This document shows positions 18,393 through 32,806 of a DNA stretch of 64,000 bases, piece by piece. The stretch's first letter is position 1; every line of letters starts with the position of its first letter. The notes under the pieces were generated by a model. It saw only the letters and a program-made list of their open reading frames with translations, ran no database searches and was not told the DNA's origin. The DNA is from the human T2T-CHM13v2.0 reference genome, Homo sapiens. Both the position numbers and the translations under genes were made by a program. The stretch lies in NCBI RefSeq assembly GCF_009914755.1, contig NC_060935.1. One strand, given 5' to 3'.

Positions 18393-18461
18393 CACCACTG
18401 CAGGACGAGGCGCTGAGTAAGGGACGGGGCTGCTCCCAGCAGAATCCACAAAGTAGCTCAT
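18393..18461 (-). CDS. ETS1: ETS1 long isoform coding part of exon 2 (exon spans 18475-18393; 14 nt 5'UTR + 69 nt CDS)
   Basis: cacag|GTGCTGAGAGCAGA ATG AGC TAC TTT GTG...GCA GTG GTG|gtgagt encodes MSYFVDSAGSSPVPYSAPRPAVV. A at -3. In-frame TGA at -18 once spliced to exon 1. Confidence 0.97.
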
Positions 18462-20410
18462 TCTGCTCTCAGCACCTGTGTGAGAGAAGGCGTTGGCTGA
18501 GCCTCTGGATGCTCACAGCTTTGTGGATTAGAATCCACAAGGAAGACACGAACCTTAGAACTAAAAGTCTCCTTAGGAGCCAACCAGTTCACTTCTTTGC
18601 ATGGCAGGGAAAGCAATGGAAATTCAGAAAGATCAGTGACTAACCCCCAGCACCGGTAAGAGCAGACCTCAGACAGAACCAGTTCCCTGGTTGCAAGGTA
18701 ACATGGATAACAGACCATGTCTACACACTGCAGACAGCAAGCAGTAAACCAGTGCACAAGAGGCACATTTTTGTAGGGTTTCTGAGCAGGAACCAGTTCT
18801 TGTGTGTCTCCCCCACCCACAACCAGGCCTGGCAGATAAGTAGGCATACAATACACAGTTGGGGTGTAAATTAATTGATAAAGGAATAAACATAGAAAGG
18901 ATTGGAGAAAGGAAGGATGGAAAAAGCTCTCCTGAAGAGGTATGTCACCCAGTAACCCAAGAAACAGATAAACAGAGAGAAACCCTGCAAAAGGGATTGA
19001 GCATTATTGATCTTGAAAAAAGGAGAAGGGCTATTAAATAACTTGTTGAGAGCTATTTTCTACATTGGAAGTCTGAGTGACTAGAATGCTTGAGCAATTT
19101 TCTGGCTGAAGGGATTTTCCAGTTAGCTACTGGTCATCATTACATATCGAACATCTCTGTTGACCTAAATACTTTCGAAAGTTCATTACACACTTTCATA
19201 AACTTAATACTATGCATTTAAAAAGTCGTTCTTGAATAATCTCGAAGATTAAATTCCTAGGCATACCACTCAGAGGCCAAATTCTTATTGTTAGGAAGTG
19301 ACGCTTTAACTTCACTGCTTTCCAGTTTGTATTTGTCTGCCCTTTTCCTTAATTCTACATTTAAAGCAACTGATACATTTCAAGAAAAATCAAGTAATAA
19401 GAAATGTCTTATGTTCAATTTGCAGTTTGGTTCACCATCTTGATCCTTTTTTTCATATGAAATGTATTTAAATGTTTAAATGATATAGTTAAACAGGCTT
19501 GGCAATATAAAACTATACTGCCTAAGGGCTACAACAACAAAGCTACTAATATCATATGGTTAAGGGATGTAAGCTACAAACCTCCTGAAGTCATAACTTA
19601 TCCTAGAACTATACTTTGTGTTTTTAACTAAAACTTTGCCTTTTTCTTATGTCTTTTCTTCCAGATGTAGAATGCAGTCAAAATAACATTAGTTTTAAAA
19701 AATTAACTAAGGGTCTGAATAGCTAGACTATGTTAATCAAGATTTTGTCCTTTAGTTTTTTAGGAAATTGATCTCCACTACAGCAAAACCACCCCAGGAA
19801 GAGCTCCTCATTGGTGAAGATGAATGGTAGGAAAAGCTCAAAGTACCCTAGGCCAGGGACATTGTTAACATCTGCGTCAGGGGTCACTACTCAGTGTTTG
19901 TTTCCAAGAACAGTGAGTACCTATGATGGGTCTGACTCTGTACCAGGCACTGAGCATGAAATAAGAGTAAGATGCATGTCACGTGGTTTAGATATGCCTG
20001 TCCTGACCATACACTGTGAGGATCATCTCACTGAGCTCCATGGCTCCTTTCCCACCAAAGTGTTCCTCGTTTTTACTCTTAGAATCAAGTTTTAAAGTCC
20101 TGATGAATCATCATCAAACCATATATCCCACTTCAAAGTTTTTGATCTACTTTGAGATCTTTGGTTGAGACATAAAAGTTAACAACATTGATTGTGTCAT
20201 ATGATAATGGCTTAACCACAATCAAATTCCCTAGGGAAATGTTGATCATCCCTCCAGGGTCCTGCAGGGCAACTAATACCTTCTAGAAATGAATACTTTT
20301 TGGAATTCCCCCCAGTGATGTGGGAATGCTGTTTCATGTAAACATTCAACCCTCTGATTTCCTCCAAAAAAAGCCCCAAGGATCTCCTGAGTCCTCACAG
20401 ACCTCAGTTA

Positions 20411-20759: not shown

Positions 20760-21697
20760 TATTTATCCAACAATCATGTAATAGGCGTCCTTTGTTAGTG
20801 GCTTGTTTATTCATTTGGTAAATAATCACTATGCACCACTATGTGCCAGACACGGTCCTGGGCACTTGAAACACACCAGTAAACAAGGATTCCTGACCTC
20901 ACGGCCCTTAGATTCTATCAGACTCAGGAAAAATCTGAGAAAGACAGGATCTCTATCTTCAGGCAGTGGAATCGACAGGCTCACACATAACTATAGCATA
21001 ATGTGATAAGTAGTTGGCCAACAATATGGAAAAAGAAATAGGAAGCAGTCAGTTCTGCTGGGTGCAGGGAATAGGAAATTGTGAAAGATTGCATAGAGCA
21101 AGGTGTAACCACATGGCCCTATAAATCATCCCTAGAGTCCCACAAGTGGCAAAGGACCTTCACCTTTCAAATGCCTATTTTACTTACGTATTTCTAAGAG
21201 AAAGGACTTTTGGAATTGGCAGCCACATCCTGAAGCCCACCTCAAAGATACCAAGGGTTTCTGTCTGCTGGCCAGACAACACTCTCCCTCATAGCAACAC
21301 TCCTGGAAAAGGGGTCAGTGGAAATATGTTTTCTCTTCTCATTGACAGAGTGAGAGAAGAAAGCTCTGGCCCAACATCTGGTGCACTCTGTGCTGGACTG
21401 TATTCTTGAAGCTATGACTGTATGAATGACACTTCCCTTGGGGAAAAGCCCTTTGCCCAGAGAGGAAACTGACAAGAGGGAGTTGCCAGGGCTCTCAAGG
21501 GCTCTCGTCTCAGGAAATAACTCTTGGACAGAAATGGATTGCTGCTTTATTATTTTTTTGGAGAAAGAAAAAAAGAACCCGCCCTTTTTCCACTTGTAGA
21601 TTGTGACACAGAACAGCTGCTAAAGACGTAAACCTTCTCAGAAGAAGTAAATGAAGTGTTTAGGTAGTTTTTTTAGTAGCGTTTGTTTTTTCTTTTC

Positions 21698-21905
21698 TTT
21701 TTTGGCTTTTTGGCAAAAGAGAATTCCCTCCCACAAGACAACTGCTTGAACATCAGCTGCACCAACTTTTTTCTTAGCATTGCACACGTTTATTGCATAA
21801 ATACAAAGCAATTGTGGCATCTGAAGATTTACTCCCCAGCGAAGAAGCATCCATGAGACCTGTTTGGGTGCAAAAATGATTTGGACGCTGGGTAACAGAG
21901 GGTCT
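21698..21905 (-). repeat. Source arm of a ~205-bp inverted repeat (unique intronic sequence)
   Basis: Its reverse complement aligns to 23047-23253 with 9 substitutions and 1 indel by manual count. Confidence 0.97.
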
Positions 21906-22129
21906 TGCAGAGCTGAGTTTATTTTTCTTGAAAAGGACCTGCGCCACCTGAGCCGCAGGATAAGTGGGTCAGAAAGGAGGCTGCCCTGCTCTGGACTGTG
22001 GCTTGCTGTGCCCCCCCATGCTCCCTCCCACCTCTCCAGCCCCCTCTCGCCGTGACCCCTGCACCCTCCACTGCAACATGGAACTCTGTTGTTTTCTTAG
22101 GCACGCGTTGCCAGGTCTCACTCCCCTGC

Positions 22130-22890
22130 CCTTCTCATGTTACCCCCTCTGCTAGGAATGCCCATCCACCCTCAAGATGAGTGAACCCTGCCTCCTCAGG
22201 GTTTTAGGCTCAGCTCAGAGGTTATTGCAGCCTGGAATCCTTCCTGAGCCACGCTTCACCCCAGCCAGGGTTAGCGGCTCCTTGTTTATGTTCCCAAAGT
22301 GTATTTCTATCACGGTGCTTATCACATTGTTTTATTACCATCTGCTTCTGTTTGTCTCTCCAGCTAAATTCTCATCTACTTGAAGGCAGGCACCATGCCT
22401 TTTTCATTTTTGTCTTCAGCACTTAAGACAGACCATGGGGCATAATGGAAACTCATTGTTTTTTTAAATCAGTGAATGAGTAAATGAATGAATTGGTCTC
22501 ACAAGACTAAAAATGTAAGAGGTAGATCAGATGTGAATATATTTGTTCCTCAAAATAGAGAATCTGAATAGATTGCAGGTCTAGATAAAGAACCACTTGA
22601 AATAATCAGTTTGTTTCATGATCCATTTCTAAGGGAAAACCGTTTCCTTCTATTCACATAGCTATTTAATGCCCCCTCATCTAAGAAGGCTTTTCCCATC
22701 ACCGCATATGAATAGCAGCGCCTTTCTCCGTACTCTGACACCTAGGTGTTTGTTCGTTGTCTTCTCCAAAGTCCACTCTGTTAGAATTTAAGCTCCCCAA
22801 GGGGGAGATTTAGTTCATTTATTCACTCCAGATCCCTGGATCCTAGGCCAGTATTGGAAAGTAGCTGGCACATAGATAACTGTTAAATAC
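22130..22890 (+). mobile_element. L2 3'-end fragments
   Basis: ctctgctaggaatgcc...tgaaggcaggcaccatgcc...tgaatgagtaaatgaatgaa; second fragment gttagaatttaagctcc. Confidence 0.65.
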
Positions 22891-23047
22891 AATAGTGTAA
22901 GTTAGAAAACTTGTACACACTTTTTCAGTGTAAACCCCTCTTTTTACAAATGAGGAGAAAGACTAAGGCGATGCTGCTAATTGGCCAAGCTGAGACCAGA
23001 CTCCTGGTCTTCAGCCTCCTCCTGTGCTTAGAGAAGATGCTTCTCTA

Positions 23048-23271
23048 GACCTTTGTTACCCAGCGTCCAAATCATTTTTGCACCCAAACAGGTCTCATGG
23101 ATGCTGCTTAGCTGGGGAGTAAATCTTCAGATGCCACAGTTGCTTTGCATTTATGCAATAAACGTGTGCAATGCTAAGAAAAAAATTGGTGCAGCTGATG
23201 TTCAAGCAGTTGTCACGTGGGAGGGAATTCTCTTCTGCCAAAAAGCCAAAAAAAAAAAAAAAGAGAGAGAG
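23048..23271 (+). repeat. Inserted inverted copy of 21698-21905 with A15/(GA)n tail and 18-bp TSD
   Basis: AGAGAAGATGCTTCTCTA occurs exactly at 23030-23047 and 23272-23289. Confidence 0.95.
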
Positions 23272-23869
23272 AGAGAAGATGCTTCTCTAAGCACCCTCAT
23301 CACCCTGGATGGCGAGGACAGAAACAAGCATGAGATGGAGAAGACAAAAAAGTCAACACTTTGGCTTATGTGGGTGTCTCATGTCCAAAAAATCACTTTA
23401 AAACTATGGTTCTGCTTGATTCTAGAGAGTTCTATTCTTCATAGAGCGAGTGACCACTTCTCCAACTTCCCACCCTCCCCAAACTGGCAACCCGGCCAGG
23501 ACCTGTAGGCTCTCACTTCCTTTCACCCAAAGCTTGCCAGGGCAGGGCAGGGCAGGTTGAGAGACACAGAATAAAGGAAAAATTAGGGAGGAGAGGGACT
23601 GTTCAGGCCAAGGCAGCAGAAGAACAAGAAATCCCAAAGAGACCAGGCTTGAATCAAGGCTGAATCCAGTTCACATCAACTCTGACCCTGCTTGGCTGTA
23701 TTTCTAGATAACTTTGACATCAGTTAAGCCTTTTTCATTTGGGGTTATGTATTCCTAAAAGAAAAACTACGCTTTTAGGTAAATACCAAGTAAATTACAC
23801 TTTAATTTTTTTCTTTTGAAAACAAAATTCTTTTGAAATCAGCAGTTTTTGCCAAACTAATACAATGTT

Positions 23870-24400
23870 ACCGCAAAAATTAAAATACAAAAAAGTAACA
23901 GATGGATATTAGAATCACCTGAAACCTCACCATGTAGAGATAATTATACTAATAATTTGTTCAATATTCTTCTGGGTATTTTTTAATCTATCTAAACGAA
24001 CATAGATGTCACACACACACACGTGATTACAATTTTACCTTCATGAGATTATTCTCCACATGTTCTTTTGTAACCTGCTTTGTTCACTGACATTTAACAT
24101 AATGCTATGGACATTTTTCTCTGTTGATAAATGTGGCTGTCTATCCTAAAGATGATGACTGCCAAGTATTCTATTGTATGTATATATCATACTTTTAAAG
24201 AGCCTCTTATTATCGTATAATTAATTTGTCCCCAATTCTTTGTCATTATAAAAATTCCTAAAATATTTTACATTCCCACTAAATGCCGAAAAAGAGCATT
24301 TTGGGGACAAAGAAAATATGCATTCCATATTTGAATACATATTGACTAACTGCATTCTATAATAGACCAGCCAAAATTAGACTCCCACTGACAAAGGCAT
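23870..24400 (-). mobile_element. Old L1M (L1ME-like) 3' fragment
   Basis: ttgtaacctgctttgttcact...tattctattgtatgtatatatcata...tctttgtcattata. Confidence 0.55.
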
Positions 24401-24630: not shown

Positions 24631-25118
<488 letters not shown>

Positions 25119-27534: not shown

Positions 27535-27760
27535 GAACCCTGGAGTTACATACTATGGGTGAACGTAGAACTGCTTGCTGCGTGTATGGCCATGAGCAAA
27601 TTTCTTAACCTCACAATCAGTTTCCTCAACTATAAAATGCAGGTAATAATATCAACACTTTCAGGATTATAGAGGAGGATCATACAAAACACAAATACTT
27701 AGCAGCATGCTGTATAAATAGTAAAAATGGTCAATAAATAATAATTGTTATTATTGCTAT
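27535..27760 (+). mobile_element. MIR
   Basis: gagcaaatttcttaacctc...cagtttcctcaactataaaatg. Confidence 0.7.
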
Positions 27761-28330
27761 TTTATCAGTAGTGCCTGGCAATTAGTAAGCATTAGTAAAT
27801 GCTTACTAATGTCACTAATTAGTAACACTACTGTTTTATATTAATTACTTTTTTCTACTGCCCAACATGGCAGAGGTTATTTAAGTGTTAGAGCTAGAAC
27901 ATGGATAGCTAAATCTCTCATCTCTTTTTCTAAAGACTTGTATTCAAGTCATGAAAACAGGATTCCCTTTCATAATCATAGGTTGAGTAGCATTAGTCAA
28001 GAATTTTGCAGGAGAAAAGAGCCACAATTTCTGTTTAATGGTAGTCTGTTTGTACCATTGTTATGCATAAAACCAAGAAGTAAGCATTTTTCTTACAGTG
28101 GAGAACTAACTCATTGAAAGATTGCATAGCACAAATGGTGAAATATTGCAGCTTCCTGAGTTAAACCAACATCTTTTTGATATAATGTCGATCTTTTGTG
28201 GACTTACGCTTTAGCAACTAGATACAAATATAAGGAAGTAGTAAAGCACTGCGGAAAATAGTGCAAGATTTCTTGTTTGTTCATTTTTTTCATTTTTGCT
28301 TTTTCATTTGTTTTTGCTTTTTCTTTAGAG

Positions 28331-28495
28331 CAGTGCCTCCCAAACTGTAATGTGCATATGAATCACCCGGGGATCCTGTTACAATGCAGTCTGCTGCAGT
28401 AGGTCTGAGGTCTGGCCAGACATTCCACATTTCTAACAAGCTCCCATGTGGTGCTGATGCCGCAGGTCAGAGGACTTCACTGTGAGTAGCAAGGC
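28331..28495. mobile_element. MER5A (hAT-Charlie) relic
   Basis: cagtgcctcccaaactg...gaatcacccggggatcctgtt...catttctaacaagctccca...gagtagcaagg. Confidence 0.85.
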
Positions 28496-32735: not shown

Positions 32736-32806
32736 CTCACTTACTACTTTGCCGGAGAGCAGATCCTGAGTGAGCTTCCCTCAAAGTCTGTGGTCTCTTT
32801 CCAACT
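32736..32806 (-). other. ETS1: ETS1 long isoform non-coding exon 1 (5'UTR); TSS approximate
   Basis: AGTTGGAAAGAGACCACAGAC...GGCAAAGTAGTAAGTGAG|gtgtgt. The junction GTAAGTGAG/GTGCTGAG matches my recall of the mRNA. No AUG in the exon. The TSS position is from recall and cannot be proven from sequence. Confidence 0.85.

What the first reader, a model, noticed from the sequence alone, without database searches (positions are those of the whole stretch)
21698..23289. Intron copied back into itself: local inverted retro-like insertion of unique ETS1 intron 1 sequence
Seen: 23047-23253 is the reverse complement of 21905-21698 (~95% identical, 10 differences in ~205 bp), and I do not recognise it as a transposon. 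The copy ends in A15 + (GA)n and is flanked by an exact 18-bp duplication AGAGAAGATGCTTCTCTA preceded by TT (TT|AGAG, L1-endonuclease-like). The copied strand is the ETS1 sense strand, and it stops exactly at a genomic A-rich run (AAAAAAGAAAAGAAAAAA). Known: a 10-20 bp TSD, A-tail and 5' truncation are hallmarks of L1 target-primed reverse transcription, but retrocopies normally land far from their source. Inference: nascent ETS1 pre-mRNA was internally primed and reverse-transcribed in cis, 1.15 kb from its own template. This would imply germline or early-embryo transcription here and RNA-templated local insertion or repair. The alternative is a DNA template switch.
Basis: partly seen in the sequence, partly recalled or inferred. 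Interest (0 to 1): 0.8.

Follow-up and report, generated by a model that had tools for sequence, protein, structure and literature searches.

The report
Local inverted retro-like copy in ETS1 intron
About 200 bases of unique ETS1 intron 1 sequence were copied, upside down, into a small DNA palindrome 1.15 kb away, with the marks of LINE-1 insertion, though a DNA copying slip remains a serious alternative.

Summary
Bases 23048-23247 are the reverse complement of 21904-21704, with 200 aligned positions, 9 substitutions and 1 indel. An exact 18-bp direct repeat flanks the copy, which ends in A15 plus a short GA run.

The sequence has only these two copies in the whole T2T genome. A control query from a repeat-masked stretch gave 6512 candidates.

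The copied strand is the ETS1 sense strand. The copy ends at a genomic A-rich run, of which only 6 exist on that strand in 64 kb. The nick site is TT|AGAG. No TSD flanks the 21.8-kb arm, so the direction is 21.8 kb to 23.0 kb.

New here: the pre-insertion target was a perfect palindrome with 13-bp arms, one of two in 63.8 kb. The duplicated bases are its centre, so both nicks read CTCT/AA.

Best reading (about 0.5): LINE-1 ORF2p target-primed insertion of a local unspliced transcript, a "class 1 templated sequence insertion" with a local donor.

Main rival (about 0.3): replication template switching at the palindrome, with the A-run copied from DNA.

Outgroup genomes were not available, so the empty site and the ancestral tail are untested. 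Divergence suggests roughly 10-47 My.

The parts
21704..21904 (-). Source segment: unique ETS1 intron 1 sequence, read on the ETS1 sense strand. It lies inside the RefSeq enhancer feature 21524-22025.
   Evidence: Searches give the alignment to the copy. Searches show it is the only other genomic match. One search finds no TSD around it. The enhancer feature comes from the hub's table.
21686..21703 (-). Genomic A-rich run AAAAAAGAAAAGAAAAAA directly 3' of the copied segment on the sense strand. It is the proposed internal priming site, or a microhomology site.
   Evidence: It is one of only 6 distinct runs with at least 16 of 18 A on the minus strand of the window.
23024..23029 (.). Outer left part (GTGCTT) of the 13-bp left palindrome arm 23024-23036 of the pre-insertion site. 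Its last two bases are the TT before the nick.
   Evidence: pair I2.
23030..23047 (+). 5' target-site duplication, 18 bp (17 bp if the last A came from the template).
   Evidence: family D2.
23048..23247 (+). Inserted copy, the reverse complement of 21904-21704. It is 95.5% identical to the source over 200 aligned positions.
23248..23262 (+). A15 tail.
   Evidence: (left of TSD2).
23263..23271 (+). GAGAGAGAG between the tail and the 3' TSD, of unexplained origin. It may be a later expansion of the AGAG at the start of the TSD, or stutter during priming.
   Evidence: One search gave 7 short genomic hits to this simple run only.
23272..23289 (+). 3' target-site duplication, identical to the 5' copy.
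   Evidence: family D2.
23290..23294 (.). Outer right part (AGCAC) of the right palindrome arm 23282-23294 (CTTCTCTAAGCAC).
   Evidence: pair I2.

Best explanation
This is a one-off, ancient insertion made by the LINE-1 ORF2 protein. It is roughly 10-47 My old, or about 20 My at 1.0-1.2e-9 substitutions per site per year. The kind is a 'class 1 templated sequence insertion', whose template was not an L1, an Alu or an mRNA. The template was an unspliced sense-strand transcript of ETS1 intron 1, either pre-mRNA or an enhancer transcript, made 1.15 kb away.

Proposed steps:
1. The L1 endonuclease nicked the bottom strand at 5'-CTCT/AA-3', which reads TT|AGAG on the top strand.
2. The freed 3' end paired with the A/G-rich tract of the local RNA. 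That tract was either internal or extended by a short added A-tail.
3. ORF2p copied about 200 nt towards the RNA 5' end and then stopped or was truncated.
4. The top strand was cut 17-18 bp away at the mirror-image CTCT/AA (or TCTA/AG) site supplied by the palindrome.
5. The cDNA was joined with 0-1 nt of microhomology, and fill-in produced the 17-18-bp duplication.

Shown here: the anatomy, the uniqueness of the sequence, the direction of copying and the strand. Inferred: the enzyme, the RNA intermediate, and the use of RNA still near its site of synthesis.
For: - An exact 18-bp TSD brackets the copy. This is within the 7-19 bp reported for L1-mediated retroposons (PMC1687206 passages; 7-18 nt in PMC11727581 passages).
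- The A15 tail abuts the 3' TSD on the strand and side that target-primed reverse transcription (TPRT) predicts for a bottom-strand nick at TT|AGAG.
- The nick context is YY|RRRR, found at 2.0-2.2% of window positions. TT|ARRR is found at 0.31-0.33%.
- The second nick reads CTCT|AA or TCTA|AG, 17-18 bp from the first. The published Alu/L1 pattern is a first nick at TTTT|AA and a second nick 15-16 bp downstream at TNTN|AA (PMC2836564 passages).
- The copy ends exactly at an A-rich run. Only 6 such runs lie on that strand in 64 kb, as expected if an A-tract was needed for priming.
- The copied strand is the ETS1 sense strand (plus the hub's gene table).
- The donor is intact and has no TSD of its own.
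- The sequence has only two genomic copies, whereas a control query from a repeat-masked stretch gave 6512 candidates.
- It is not a structured small RNA.
- Intronic and intergenic donors are documented for ORF2p-mediated class 1 insertions (PMC5110952, parts 1-2 read). Retroposons carrying downstream intron sequence are also documented (PMC1687206).
- ORF2p extends primers annealed over only 5 nt (PMC10830420 passages).
- A bias of retrocopy insertion towards loci in spatial contact with the parent gene has been reported (PMC10733166 abstract and passages).
Against: - The tail coincides with an 18-nt A-rich run in the source DNA, so it could have been copied rather than added.
- No AATAAA or ATTAAA lies within 10-30 nt of the end. 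The nearest AATAAA is at nt 112 of 217, about 88 nt upstream. Class 1 insertions are described as having such a signal.
- The nick site carries two G in place of A.
- A random L1-mediated insertion would land within 1.35 kb of its donor with probability about 9e-7. This is my arithmetic: 2 x 1.35 kb over the 3.117-Gb genome.
- I found no published local case in searches.
- The target is a perfect palindrome with 13-bp arms, one of 2 in 63.8 kb. TPRT explains only its inner six bases on each side.
- The GA run between tail and TSD is unexplained.
- ORF2p copies DNA and RNA templates about equally well, so even an L1 nick does not prove an RNA template.
- No outgroup was examined.
Confidence: 0.5

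Rival explanations
1. DNA-only replication template switch, a kilobase-scale version of the four-point template-switch, FoSTeS or MMBIR type of event.

Proposed steps:
1. A nascent strand copied into the second arm of the palindrome.
2. Its last 17-18 nt folded back as a hairpin and the 3' end left the template.
3. That end annealed to the opposite strand 1.15 kb away and copied about 215 nt, including the A-rich run.
4. It returned by purine-rich microhomology to the template bases left unpaired by the hairpin.
5. Re-copying those bases made a duplication that mimics a TSD.

No RNA and no L1 enzyme are involved.
For: - It explains the short distance and the inverted orientation directly. [quoted passage not shown]
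- It explains why the target is a rare perfect palindrome, 2 with 13-bp arms in 63.8 kb, when 20 shuffles gave 0-2 with arms of at least 10 bp.
- It explains why the duplication is centred on the dyad.
- The TSD region folds as an 8-bp-stem DNA hairpin of -5.2 kcal/mol, z = -2.48.
- The source run contains AGAAAAGA and the TSD starts AGAGAAGA, a 7 of 8 match. The end of copying could therefore have been set by microhomology.
- The 'tail' has a DNA template at the right place.
- There is no polyadenylation signal.
Against: - The predicted junction would keep the source's interrupted run joined directly to the TSD. The observed junction is a pure A15 plus 9 nt of GA before an exact TSD. That needs several later changes in about 30 nt, against 4.5% divergence elsewhere.
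- Microhomology at the first switch is only 1 nt.
- The duplication length, the YY|RRRR boundary and the copied strand being the sense strand with its A-run at the 3' end would each be coincidences. YY|RRRR occurs at about 2% of positions.
- The template-switch events catalogued in the passages I read were filtered at a fragment length of at least 10 bp within mutation clusters. That is much smaller in scale than 200 nt copied from 1.15 kb away.
Confidence: 0.3
2. Hybrid reading. The L1 endonuclease made the two nicks, but ORF2p, or a cellular polymerase, extended the nicked 3' end on nearby single-stranded DNA. That DNA would be the sense, non-template strand of the source, displaced for example during transcription or replication. 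No RNA template is involved.
For: - ORF2p polymerises on DNA and RNA templates with about equal efficiency and extends 5-nt primers (PMC10830420 passages).
- This reading keeps the endonuclease-like nick sites and the TSD.
- It explains the locality and the DNA-encoded A-run.
Against: - I found no precedent in the papers read.
- It has the same difficulty with the pure A15 plus GA run as the DNA-only model.
- It needs the donor duplex to be open 1.15 kb away.
Confidence: 0.08
3. Ordinary trans retroposition of a released, stable or polyadenylated intron or enhancer RNA that landed next to its source by chance.
For: It shares the L1 hallmarks of the best explanation. Intronic and intergenic donors are known for class 1 insertions.
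Against: - The chance of landing within 1.35 kb of the donor is about 9e-7 per event (arithmetic from the genome size).
- The RNA shows no special stability: fold z = +0.22, no Rfam family reaching its gathering score and no tRNA-like gene.
- No other retrocopy of this RNA exists anywhere in the genome.
Confidence: 0.03
4. The two arms are members of a transposable-element family, or the 23-kb arm is the original and the 21.8-kb arm is the copy.
For: None found. The whole-genome search does not detect very old repeat families: a 251-bp control stretch that I took from memory to be an old repeat matched only itself.
Against: - There are only two copies genome-wide, at 95-96% identity. Two independent copies of an ancient family would not be 95% alike.
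- The TSD and the tail flank the 23-kb arm only. The best direct repeat around the 21.8-kb arm is 10 nt with 1 mismatch, in A-rich sequence, and it does not abut the junctions.
Confidence: 0.02

Closest known systems
Class 1 templated sequence insertions (TSIs/TSIPs; Onozawa and Aplan, PMC5110952)
   Same: A non-repeat, non-mRNA genomic sequence, with intronic and intergenic donors reported, is inserted with a TSD, an A-tail and an L1-endonuclease-like site. The donor is left intact.
   Different: [quoted passage not shown] The screen described there started from junctions between non-homologous chromosomes, so local donors would not have been seen. Those cases typically have an AATAAA 10-20 nt before the tail. 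This insertion has none within about 88 nt and ends at an internal genomic A-run. Here the donor is 1.15 kb away in the same intron.
Type-2 snoRNA retroposons (Weber 2006, PMC1687206)
   Same: [quoted passage not shown] The author proposes polyadenylation of nuclear processing intermediates.
   Different: Those begin at the mature 5' end of a snoRNA. No snoRNA or other Rfam family is present here, and the RNA has no unusual fold.
Four-point template-switch mutations (Loytynoja and Goldman 2017, PMC5453318), and FoSTeS/MMBIR templated insertions (named from recall)
   Same: [quoted passage not shown] This can create inverted repeats, and palindromes favour it.
   Different: The scale is much larger: about 200 nt copied from 1.15 kb away. 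The product carries a TSD-length duplication, a pure A15 and a pyrimidine/purine boundary, none of which that model predicts.
Processed pseudogenes and retrocopies of mRNA
   Same: The same enzyme and the same hallmarks are presumed. A reported insertion bias towards loci in 3D contact with the parent gene (PMC10733166) is the nearest published hint of a proximity effect.
   Different: No splicing, no exon and no canonical polyadenylation site are involved. The donor and the copy lie in the same intron.

Membership tests
L1 ORF2p-mediated insertion (class 1 templated sequence insertion / retrocopy) | A target-site duplication of about 7-20 bp brackets the insert exactly. | tested here: met
   An 18-bp exact repeat lies at 23030-23047 and 23272-23289. 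Only 28 of 3000 random flank pairs share even 13 nt with one mismatch or fewer.
L1 ORF2p-mediated insertion (class 1 templated sequence insertion / retrocopy) | A non-templated poly(A) tail lies at the 3' end, next to the 3' TSD. | tested here: inconclusive
   A15 is present at the right end. However, the donor DNA has an 18-nt A-rich run (16 A) at the same position, so non-templated origin is not shown.
L1 ORF2p-mediated insertion (class 1 templated sequence insertion / retrocopy) | The first nick lies at the endonuclease consensus 5'-TTTT/AA-3' (TT|AAAA on the insert strand). | tested here: inconclusive
   The observed site is CTCT/AA (TT|AGAG). The pyrimidine/purine pattern is kept, but two bases differ from the consensus. 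YY|RRRR occurs at about 2% of positions. The second nick, CTCT|AA or TCTA|AG 17-18 bp away, resembles the published TNTN|AA at 15-16 bp.
L1 ORF2p-mediated insertion (class 1 templated sequence insertion / retrocopy) | A polyadenylation signal lies 10-30 nt upstream of the tail. | tested here: not met
   The nearest AATAAA is at nt 112 of the 217-nt source and there is no ATTAAA. Only AAGAAA and AAAAAG are found, inside or beside the A-rich stretches.
L1 ORF2p-mediated insertion (class 1 templated sequence insertion / retrocopy) | An RNA intermediate, shown for example by spliced exons or by a tail absent from the donor. | not testable with these tools
   The donor is purely intronic, so splicing cannot mark an RNA. 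Outgroup junctions are needed to see the ancestral tail.
L1 ORF2p-mediated insertion (class 1 templated sequence insertion / retrocopy) | Copy-and-paste: the donor is left intact and carries no hallmarks of its own. | tested here: met
   The source is continuous with its flanks and has no TSD.
Template-switch (four-point / MMBIR-type) templated insertion | A reverse-complement copy of a nearby template. | tested here: met
   The copy is inverted and 1148 nt from its template.
Template-switch (four-point / MMBIR-type) templated insertion | Microhomology at both switch points. | tested here: inconclusive
   There is 1 nt (A) at the 5' junction. At the 3' junction a 7 of 8 match is possible (AGAAAAGA against AGAGAAGA), but the observed junction has 24 nt of A15 plus GA run in between.
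Template-switch (four-point / MMBIR-type) templated insertion | A secondary-structure-prone (palindromic) departure site. | tested here: met
   The empty site is a perfect palindrome with 13-bp arms and a 3-nt loop. It is one of 2 such in 63.8 kb and forms a DNA hairpin with z = -2.48.
Dispersed repeat / transposable-element family | Many copies in the genome. | tested here: not met
   There are 2 matches genome-wide for the copy and 2 for the 701-bp source region. A control query from a repeat-masked stretch gave 6512 candidates. The search is blind to very old families, and no Dfam or RepeatMasker was available.
Retroposed small structured RNA (snoRNA, tRNA-derived SINE, other Rfam family) | The source matches an RNA family or folds unusually well. 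| tested here: not met
   Rfam gave 6 matches with E = 1.3-8.1, all far below their gathering scores and none covering the arm body. ARAGORN found 0 genes. The fold z-score is +0.22.
Orphan L1/SVA 3' transduction | A full-length source element lies just upstream of the donor on the same strand. | not tested
   This rests only on the hub's mask table, which lists no masked stretch over 532 bp in the window. No repeat annotation tool was available.

The most novel reading that the evidence does not exclude
ORF2p, or another nuclear reverse transcriptase acting at a staggered break, can use RNA that is still at or near its site of synthesis. A nick in the non-template strand of a transcribed gene would then be primed on that gene's own nascent pre-mRNA at an internal A-rich tract. 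This writes a short inverted copy of downstream intron sequence back into the same intron.

If this is general, it would be a local, transcription-coupled, RNA-templated class of insertion. Catalogues built on distant or interchromosomal donors would have missed it. It would also create long intronic inverted repeats, and here a duplicated piece of an annotated enhancer.
Probability: 0.3. Interest if true: 0.65.

Novelty: new variant of a known kind. Interest (0 to 1): 0.4.

Why it matters
If the L1 reading is right, this fossil shows that the L1 machinery can copy unprocessed nuclear RNA close to where it is made. That bears on how ORF2p picks templates in the nucleus. It also bears on whether transcription-coupled, RNA-templated insertions exist in the germline.

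The published screen for templated insertions that I read started from junctions between non-homologous chromosomes. A local class would therefore have gone unseen.

If the DNA reading is right, the locus is a clean example of a kilobase-range template switch at a short palindrome that mimics L1 hallmarks. That would be a caution for pipelines that call retro-insertions from a TSD plus an A-run alone.

Under either reading, the event put a 200-bp, 95% inverted repeat into ETS1 intron 1 and duplicated part of a RefSeq-annotated enhancer. As a single old event it changes little by itself. Its value is as a seed for a genome-wide census.

Tried and rejected
- **Known RNA families.** An Rfam scan of 21000-24000 at E up to 10 gave 6 matches with E = 1.3-8.1, all far below their gathering scores.
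- **tRNA or SINE-like origin.** ARAGORN found 0 genes.
- **Structured stable RNA.** The source RNA folds no better than shuffles, z = +0.22.
- **Dispersed repeat.** Rejected, with a positive control and a sensitivity caveat.
- **Reverse direction of copying.** Rejected because the 21.8-kb arm has no TSD.
- **More such events nearby.**
  - The window self-BLAST gave 100 pairs. The arm pair has the highest identity. Of the other 39 pairs listed, 38 fall entirely in stretches the hub lists as masked; one runs up to 52 nt past a masked end at 24958.
  - A self-BLAST of 264 kb covering all of ETS1 gave 842 HSPs and 9 low-copy pairs.
  - This pair is the only one closer than 5 kb at more than 80% identity.
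  - The other short-range items are a 366-nt direct pair at 74% identity, 4.3 kb apart, and two self-inverted stretches at 71-78%.
- **Literature searches for a published local or intragenic L1-mediated copy of intron sequence**. No such case was found. One search was swamped by an ambiguous acronym.
- **Supplementary tables.** Those of the retrocopy and TSIP papers were not opened and might list local cases.
- **Outgroup genomes, RepeatMasker/Dfam, CAGE and expression data.** None was available, so the empty-site test and any test of germline transcription could not be run.
Full report
**1. The observation**

- One search finds an inverted repeat with arms 21689-21901 and 23050-23262, 213 nt and 95% complementary, 1148 nt apart.
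- One search also finds an exact 18-nt direct repeat at 23030-23047 and 23272-23289.
- A global alignment of the core, 23048-23247 against the minus strand of 21704-21904, gives 200 aligned positions with 6 transitions, 3 transversions and one 1-base indel.
- Read on the plus strand, the copy ends ...GCC, then A15 (23248-23262), then GAGAGAGAG (23263-23271), then the second repeat copy.
- The first repeat copy is preceded by GTGCTT, so the boundary is TT|AGAG.
- On the minus strand, which is the ETS1 sense strand in the hub's gene table, the source continues after GCC into AAAAAAGAAAAGAAAAAA (21686-21703).
- Both arms lie between exon 2 (18393-18475) and exon 1 (32736-32806) of NM_001143820.2. 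They are therefore in intron 1 of that transcript.

**2. It is more than chance, and it is not a repeat family**

- A search of the whole 3.117-Gb T2T assembly with the copy found two places only, itself and the source at 96%.
- A 701-bp query around the source found itself and the copy only. The match covered query bases 250-462, so homology stops at the arm ends.
- A 901-bp query around the insertion found itself, the source and 7 short hits of 31-48 nt to the A15/GA simple run.
- Positive control: a stretch that NCBI masks as repeat (24710-24958) gave 6512 first-look candidates, of which 40 were scored: the query's own place at 100% and 39 others at 87-89%.
- Sensitivity caveat: a 251-bp stretch that I took from memory to be an old, diverged repeat matched only itself. 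'Unique' therefore means no other copy at roughly 85% identity or more. Two independent old copies could not be 95% alike in any case.
- In the window's self-BLAST the arm pair is the most similar of 100 pairs. Of the other 39 pairs listed, 38 fall entirely in masked stretches; one runs up to 52 nt past a masked end at 24958.
- The 18-nt exact flanking repeat is far beyond chance. Only 28 of 3000 random flank pairs shared even 13 nt with one mismatch or fewer.

**3. Direction and age**

- The duplication and the tail flank only the 23-kb arm.
- Around the 21.8-kb arm the best direct repeat is 10 nt with one mismatch, in A-rich sequence, and it is not at the junctions.
- So the 21.8-kb arm is the donor.
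- The Kimura distance is 0.047. This gives 10.6, 19-23 or 47 My for rates of 2.2e-9, 1.0-1.2e-9 or 0.5e-9 per site per year.
- No outgroup was available to polarise the changes or to see an empty site.

**4. What the source is not**

- No Rfam family reaches its gathering score. There are 6 matches at E = 1.3-8.1, and the only one touching the element covers the A/GA run.
- There is no tRNA-like gene.
- The source RNA folds no better than shuffled sequence, -50.4 against -51.4 +/- 4.7 kcal/mol, z = +0.22.
- It is not an annotated exon in the hub's table.
- It lies inside a RefSeq enhancer feature (21524-22025). An enhancer transcript is therefore as possible a template as ETS1 pre-mRNA.

**5.

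- With the insert and one repeat copy removed, the target reads as a perfect palindrome. The left arm GTGCTTAGAGAAG (23024-23036) and the right arm CTTCTCTAAGCAC (23282-23294) are exact reverse complements around a 3-nt loop (pair I2).
- The reconstructed 63.8-kb window holds only two distinct perfect palindromes with 13-bp arms and four with arms of 10 bp or more. Twenty shuffles gave 0-2 with arms of 10 bp or more.
- The duplicated 17-18 bp are the exact centre of the palindrome.
- The last A of the repeat could come from either the target or the template, because the source has A before GACC. The duplication is therefore 17 or 18 bp.
- With 17 bp, both strands were cut at the same sequence, 5'-CTCT/AAGCAC-3'.
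- The repeat region folds as an 8-bp-stem DNA hairpin of -5.2 kcal/mol, z = -2.48.

**6. Weighing the mechanisms: evidence for LINE-1 target-primed reverse transcription (TPRT)**

- The duplication length is typical: 7-19 bp in PMC1687206 and 7-18 nt in PMC11727581.
- The tail is on the side and strand predicted for a bottom-strand nick.
- The boundary keeps the pyrimidine/purine pattern of TT|AAAA. YY|RRRR occurs at about 2% of window positions and TT|ARRR at 0.3%.
- The second cut is an endonuclease-like site 17-18 bp away. The published pattern is a second nick 15-16 bp downstream at TNTN|AA (PMC2836564).
- The copied strand is the sense strand.
- The copy stops at one of only 6 A-rich runs on that strand in 64 kb. 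That is what an A-tract-dependent priming step predicts.
- ORF2p-mediated insertion of intronic or intergenic sequence is an established class, the class 1 templated sequence insertions (PMC5110952).
- Retroposons carrying unspliced downstream intron are known (PMC1687206).

**7. Weighing the mechanisms: evidence against, or for a DNA template switch**

- The donor is 1.15 kb away. A random trans event would land that close with probability about 9e-7 (my arithmetic from the genome size).
- Searches turned up no published local case. The nearest is a reported insertion bias towards loci in 3D contact with the parent gene (PMC10733166).
- The rare palindrome at the target is what a replication stall and hairpin would need. 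A nascent-strand hairpin also explains why the duplication is centred on the dyad.
- The 'tail' has a DNA template at the same place.
- There is no AATAAA within about 88 nt of the end.
- The source run contains AGAAAAGA against AGAGAAGA at the start of the duplication, so microhomology could have set the end of copying.
- ORF2p copies DNA as well as RNA (PMC10830420).
- Against the DNA model, the observed junction is a pure A15 plus 9 nt of GA before an exact repeat copy. It is not the source's interrupted run joined to the repeat.
- Also against it, the first switch has only 1 nt of microhomology, and the L1-like boundary, length and strand would all be coincidences.
- My rough likelihood weighing leaves the two models within a factor of a few of each other.
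- My estimates are 0.5 for L1/ORF2p on a local transcript, 0.3 for a DNA-only template switch, 0.08 for an L1 nick extended on local DNA, 0.03 for chance proximity, and 0.02 for a repeat family or reversed direction. The remainder is unassigned.

**8. Comparison with what is known**

The event works most like a class 1 templated sequence insertion. It differs in three ways: the donor is local, no polyadenylation signal is present, and the end lies at an internal genomic A-run.

It fails one listed feature of that class (the signal). Two others, a non-templated tail and the consensus nick, are inconclusive. I therefore file it as a variant, not a plain member.

The screen that defined the class began from junctions between non-homologous chromosomes, so local cases were outside its reach. 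I did not open the supplementary tables of the papers read, and these might contain local cases.

**9. Is it isolated?**

In 264 kb spanning all of ETS1, 842 self-BLAST HSPs gave 9 low-copy pairs. This is the only pair closer than 5 kb at more than 80% identity. So ETS1 shows no sign of repeated events. A genome-wide census could not be run, because the genome is served only in 10-kb stretches.

**10. Verdict**

Its mechanism is not settled.

LINE-1-type insertion of a local transcript is the best single explanation.

As one old event it is of moderate interest (0.4). Outgroup junctions and a genome-wide census would decide the matter and could raise that score.

Noticed in passing
window 21689-21901 and 23050-23262: The two arms form a roughly 200-bp, 95% inverted repeat with a 1.15-kb spacer inside ETS1 intron 1. 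They also lie inside the span of the plus-strand lncRNA LOC105369565. In either transcript they could pair as long double-stranded RNA, like inverted Alu pairs (RNA editing, effects on splicing).
   Followed up: no
window 23216-23221 versus 21730-21735: The copy reads CACGTG (an E-box, with a CpG) where the source reads CTTGTG on the sense strand (alignment positions 168-169). The source lies in a RefSeq enhancer feature (21524-22025). The copy is not annotated as one.
   Followed up: no
window 27539-27568: This is the only other perfect palindrome with 13-bp arms in the window. It has a 4-nt loop and is 77% A+T. Coordinates are in the reconstructed window; add 242 for true window coordinates, about 27781-27810. 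That would place it inside the RefSeq enhancer feature 27729-28447.
   Followed up: no
window 22270-22520 and 22740-23029: From memory, the sequence between the arms and around the target looks like old MIR-type SINE fragments. If so, the palindromic target may lie in such an element. The genome search found only the query itself, and no repeat library was available to check.
   Followed up: partly
L004/L005 versus L011/L012 (window coordinates -176836..-176139 and -109777..-109078): A 701-nt direct pair at 92.4% identity lies 66 kb apart downstream of and within the ETS1 region, with low local copy number. It may be an LTR or another interspersed element.
   Followed up: no
L022 (window coordinates -2800..-2525) and L006 (-162156..-162067): Two stretches match their own reverse complement: 278 nt at 71% and 90 nt at 78%. 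They are large imperfect palindromes in the ETS1 region.
   Followed up: no
window 21902-21950 and 21680-21700 (minus strand): A-rich words flank the source arm, AAAAATAAAC upstream and AAAAACAAAC downstream (10 nt, 1 mismatch). They do not abut the homology ends and are probably chance in A-rich sequence. They are noted in case the source is itself an older retro-insert.
   Followed up: partly
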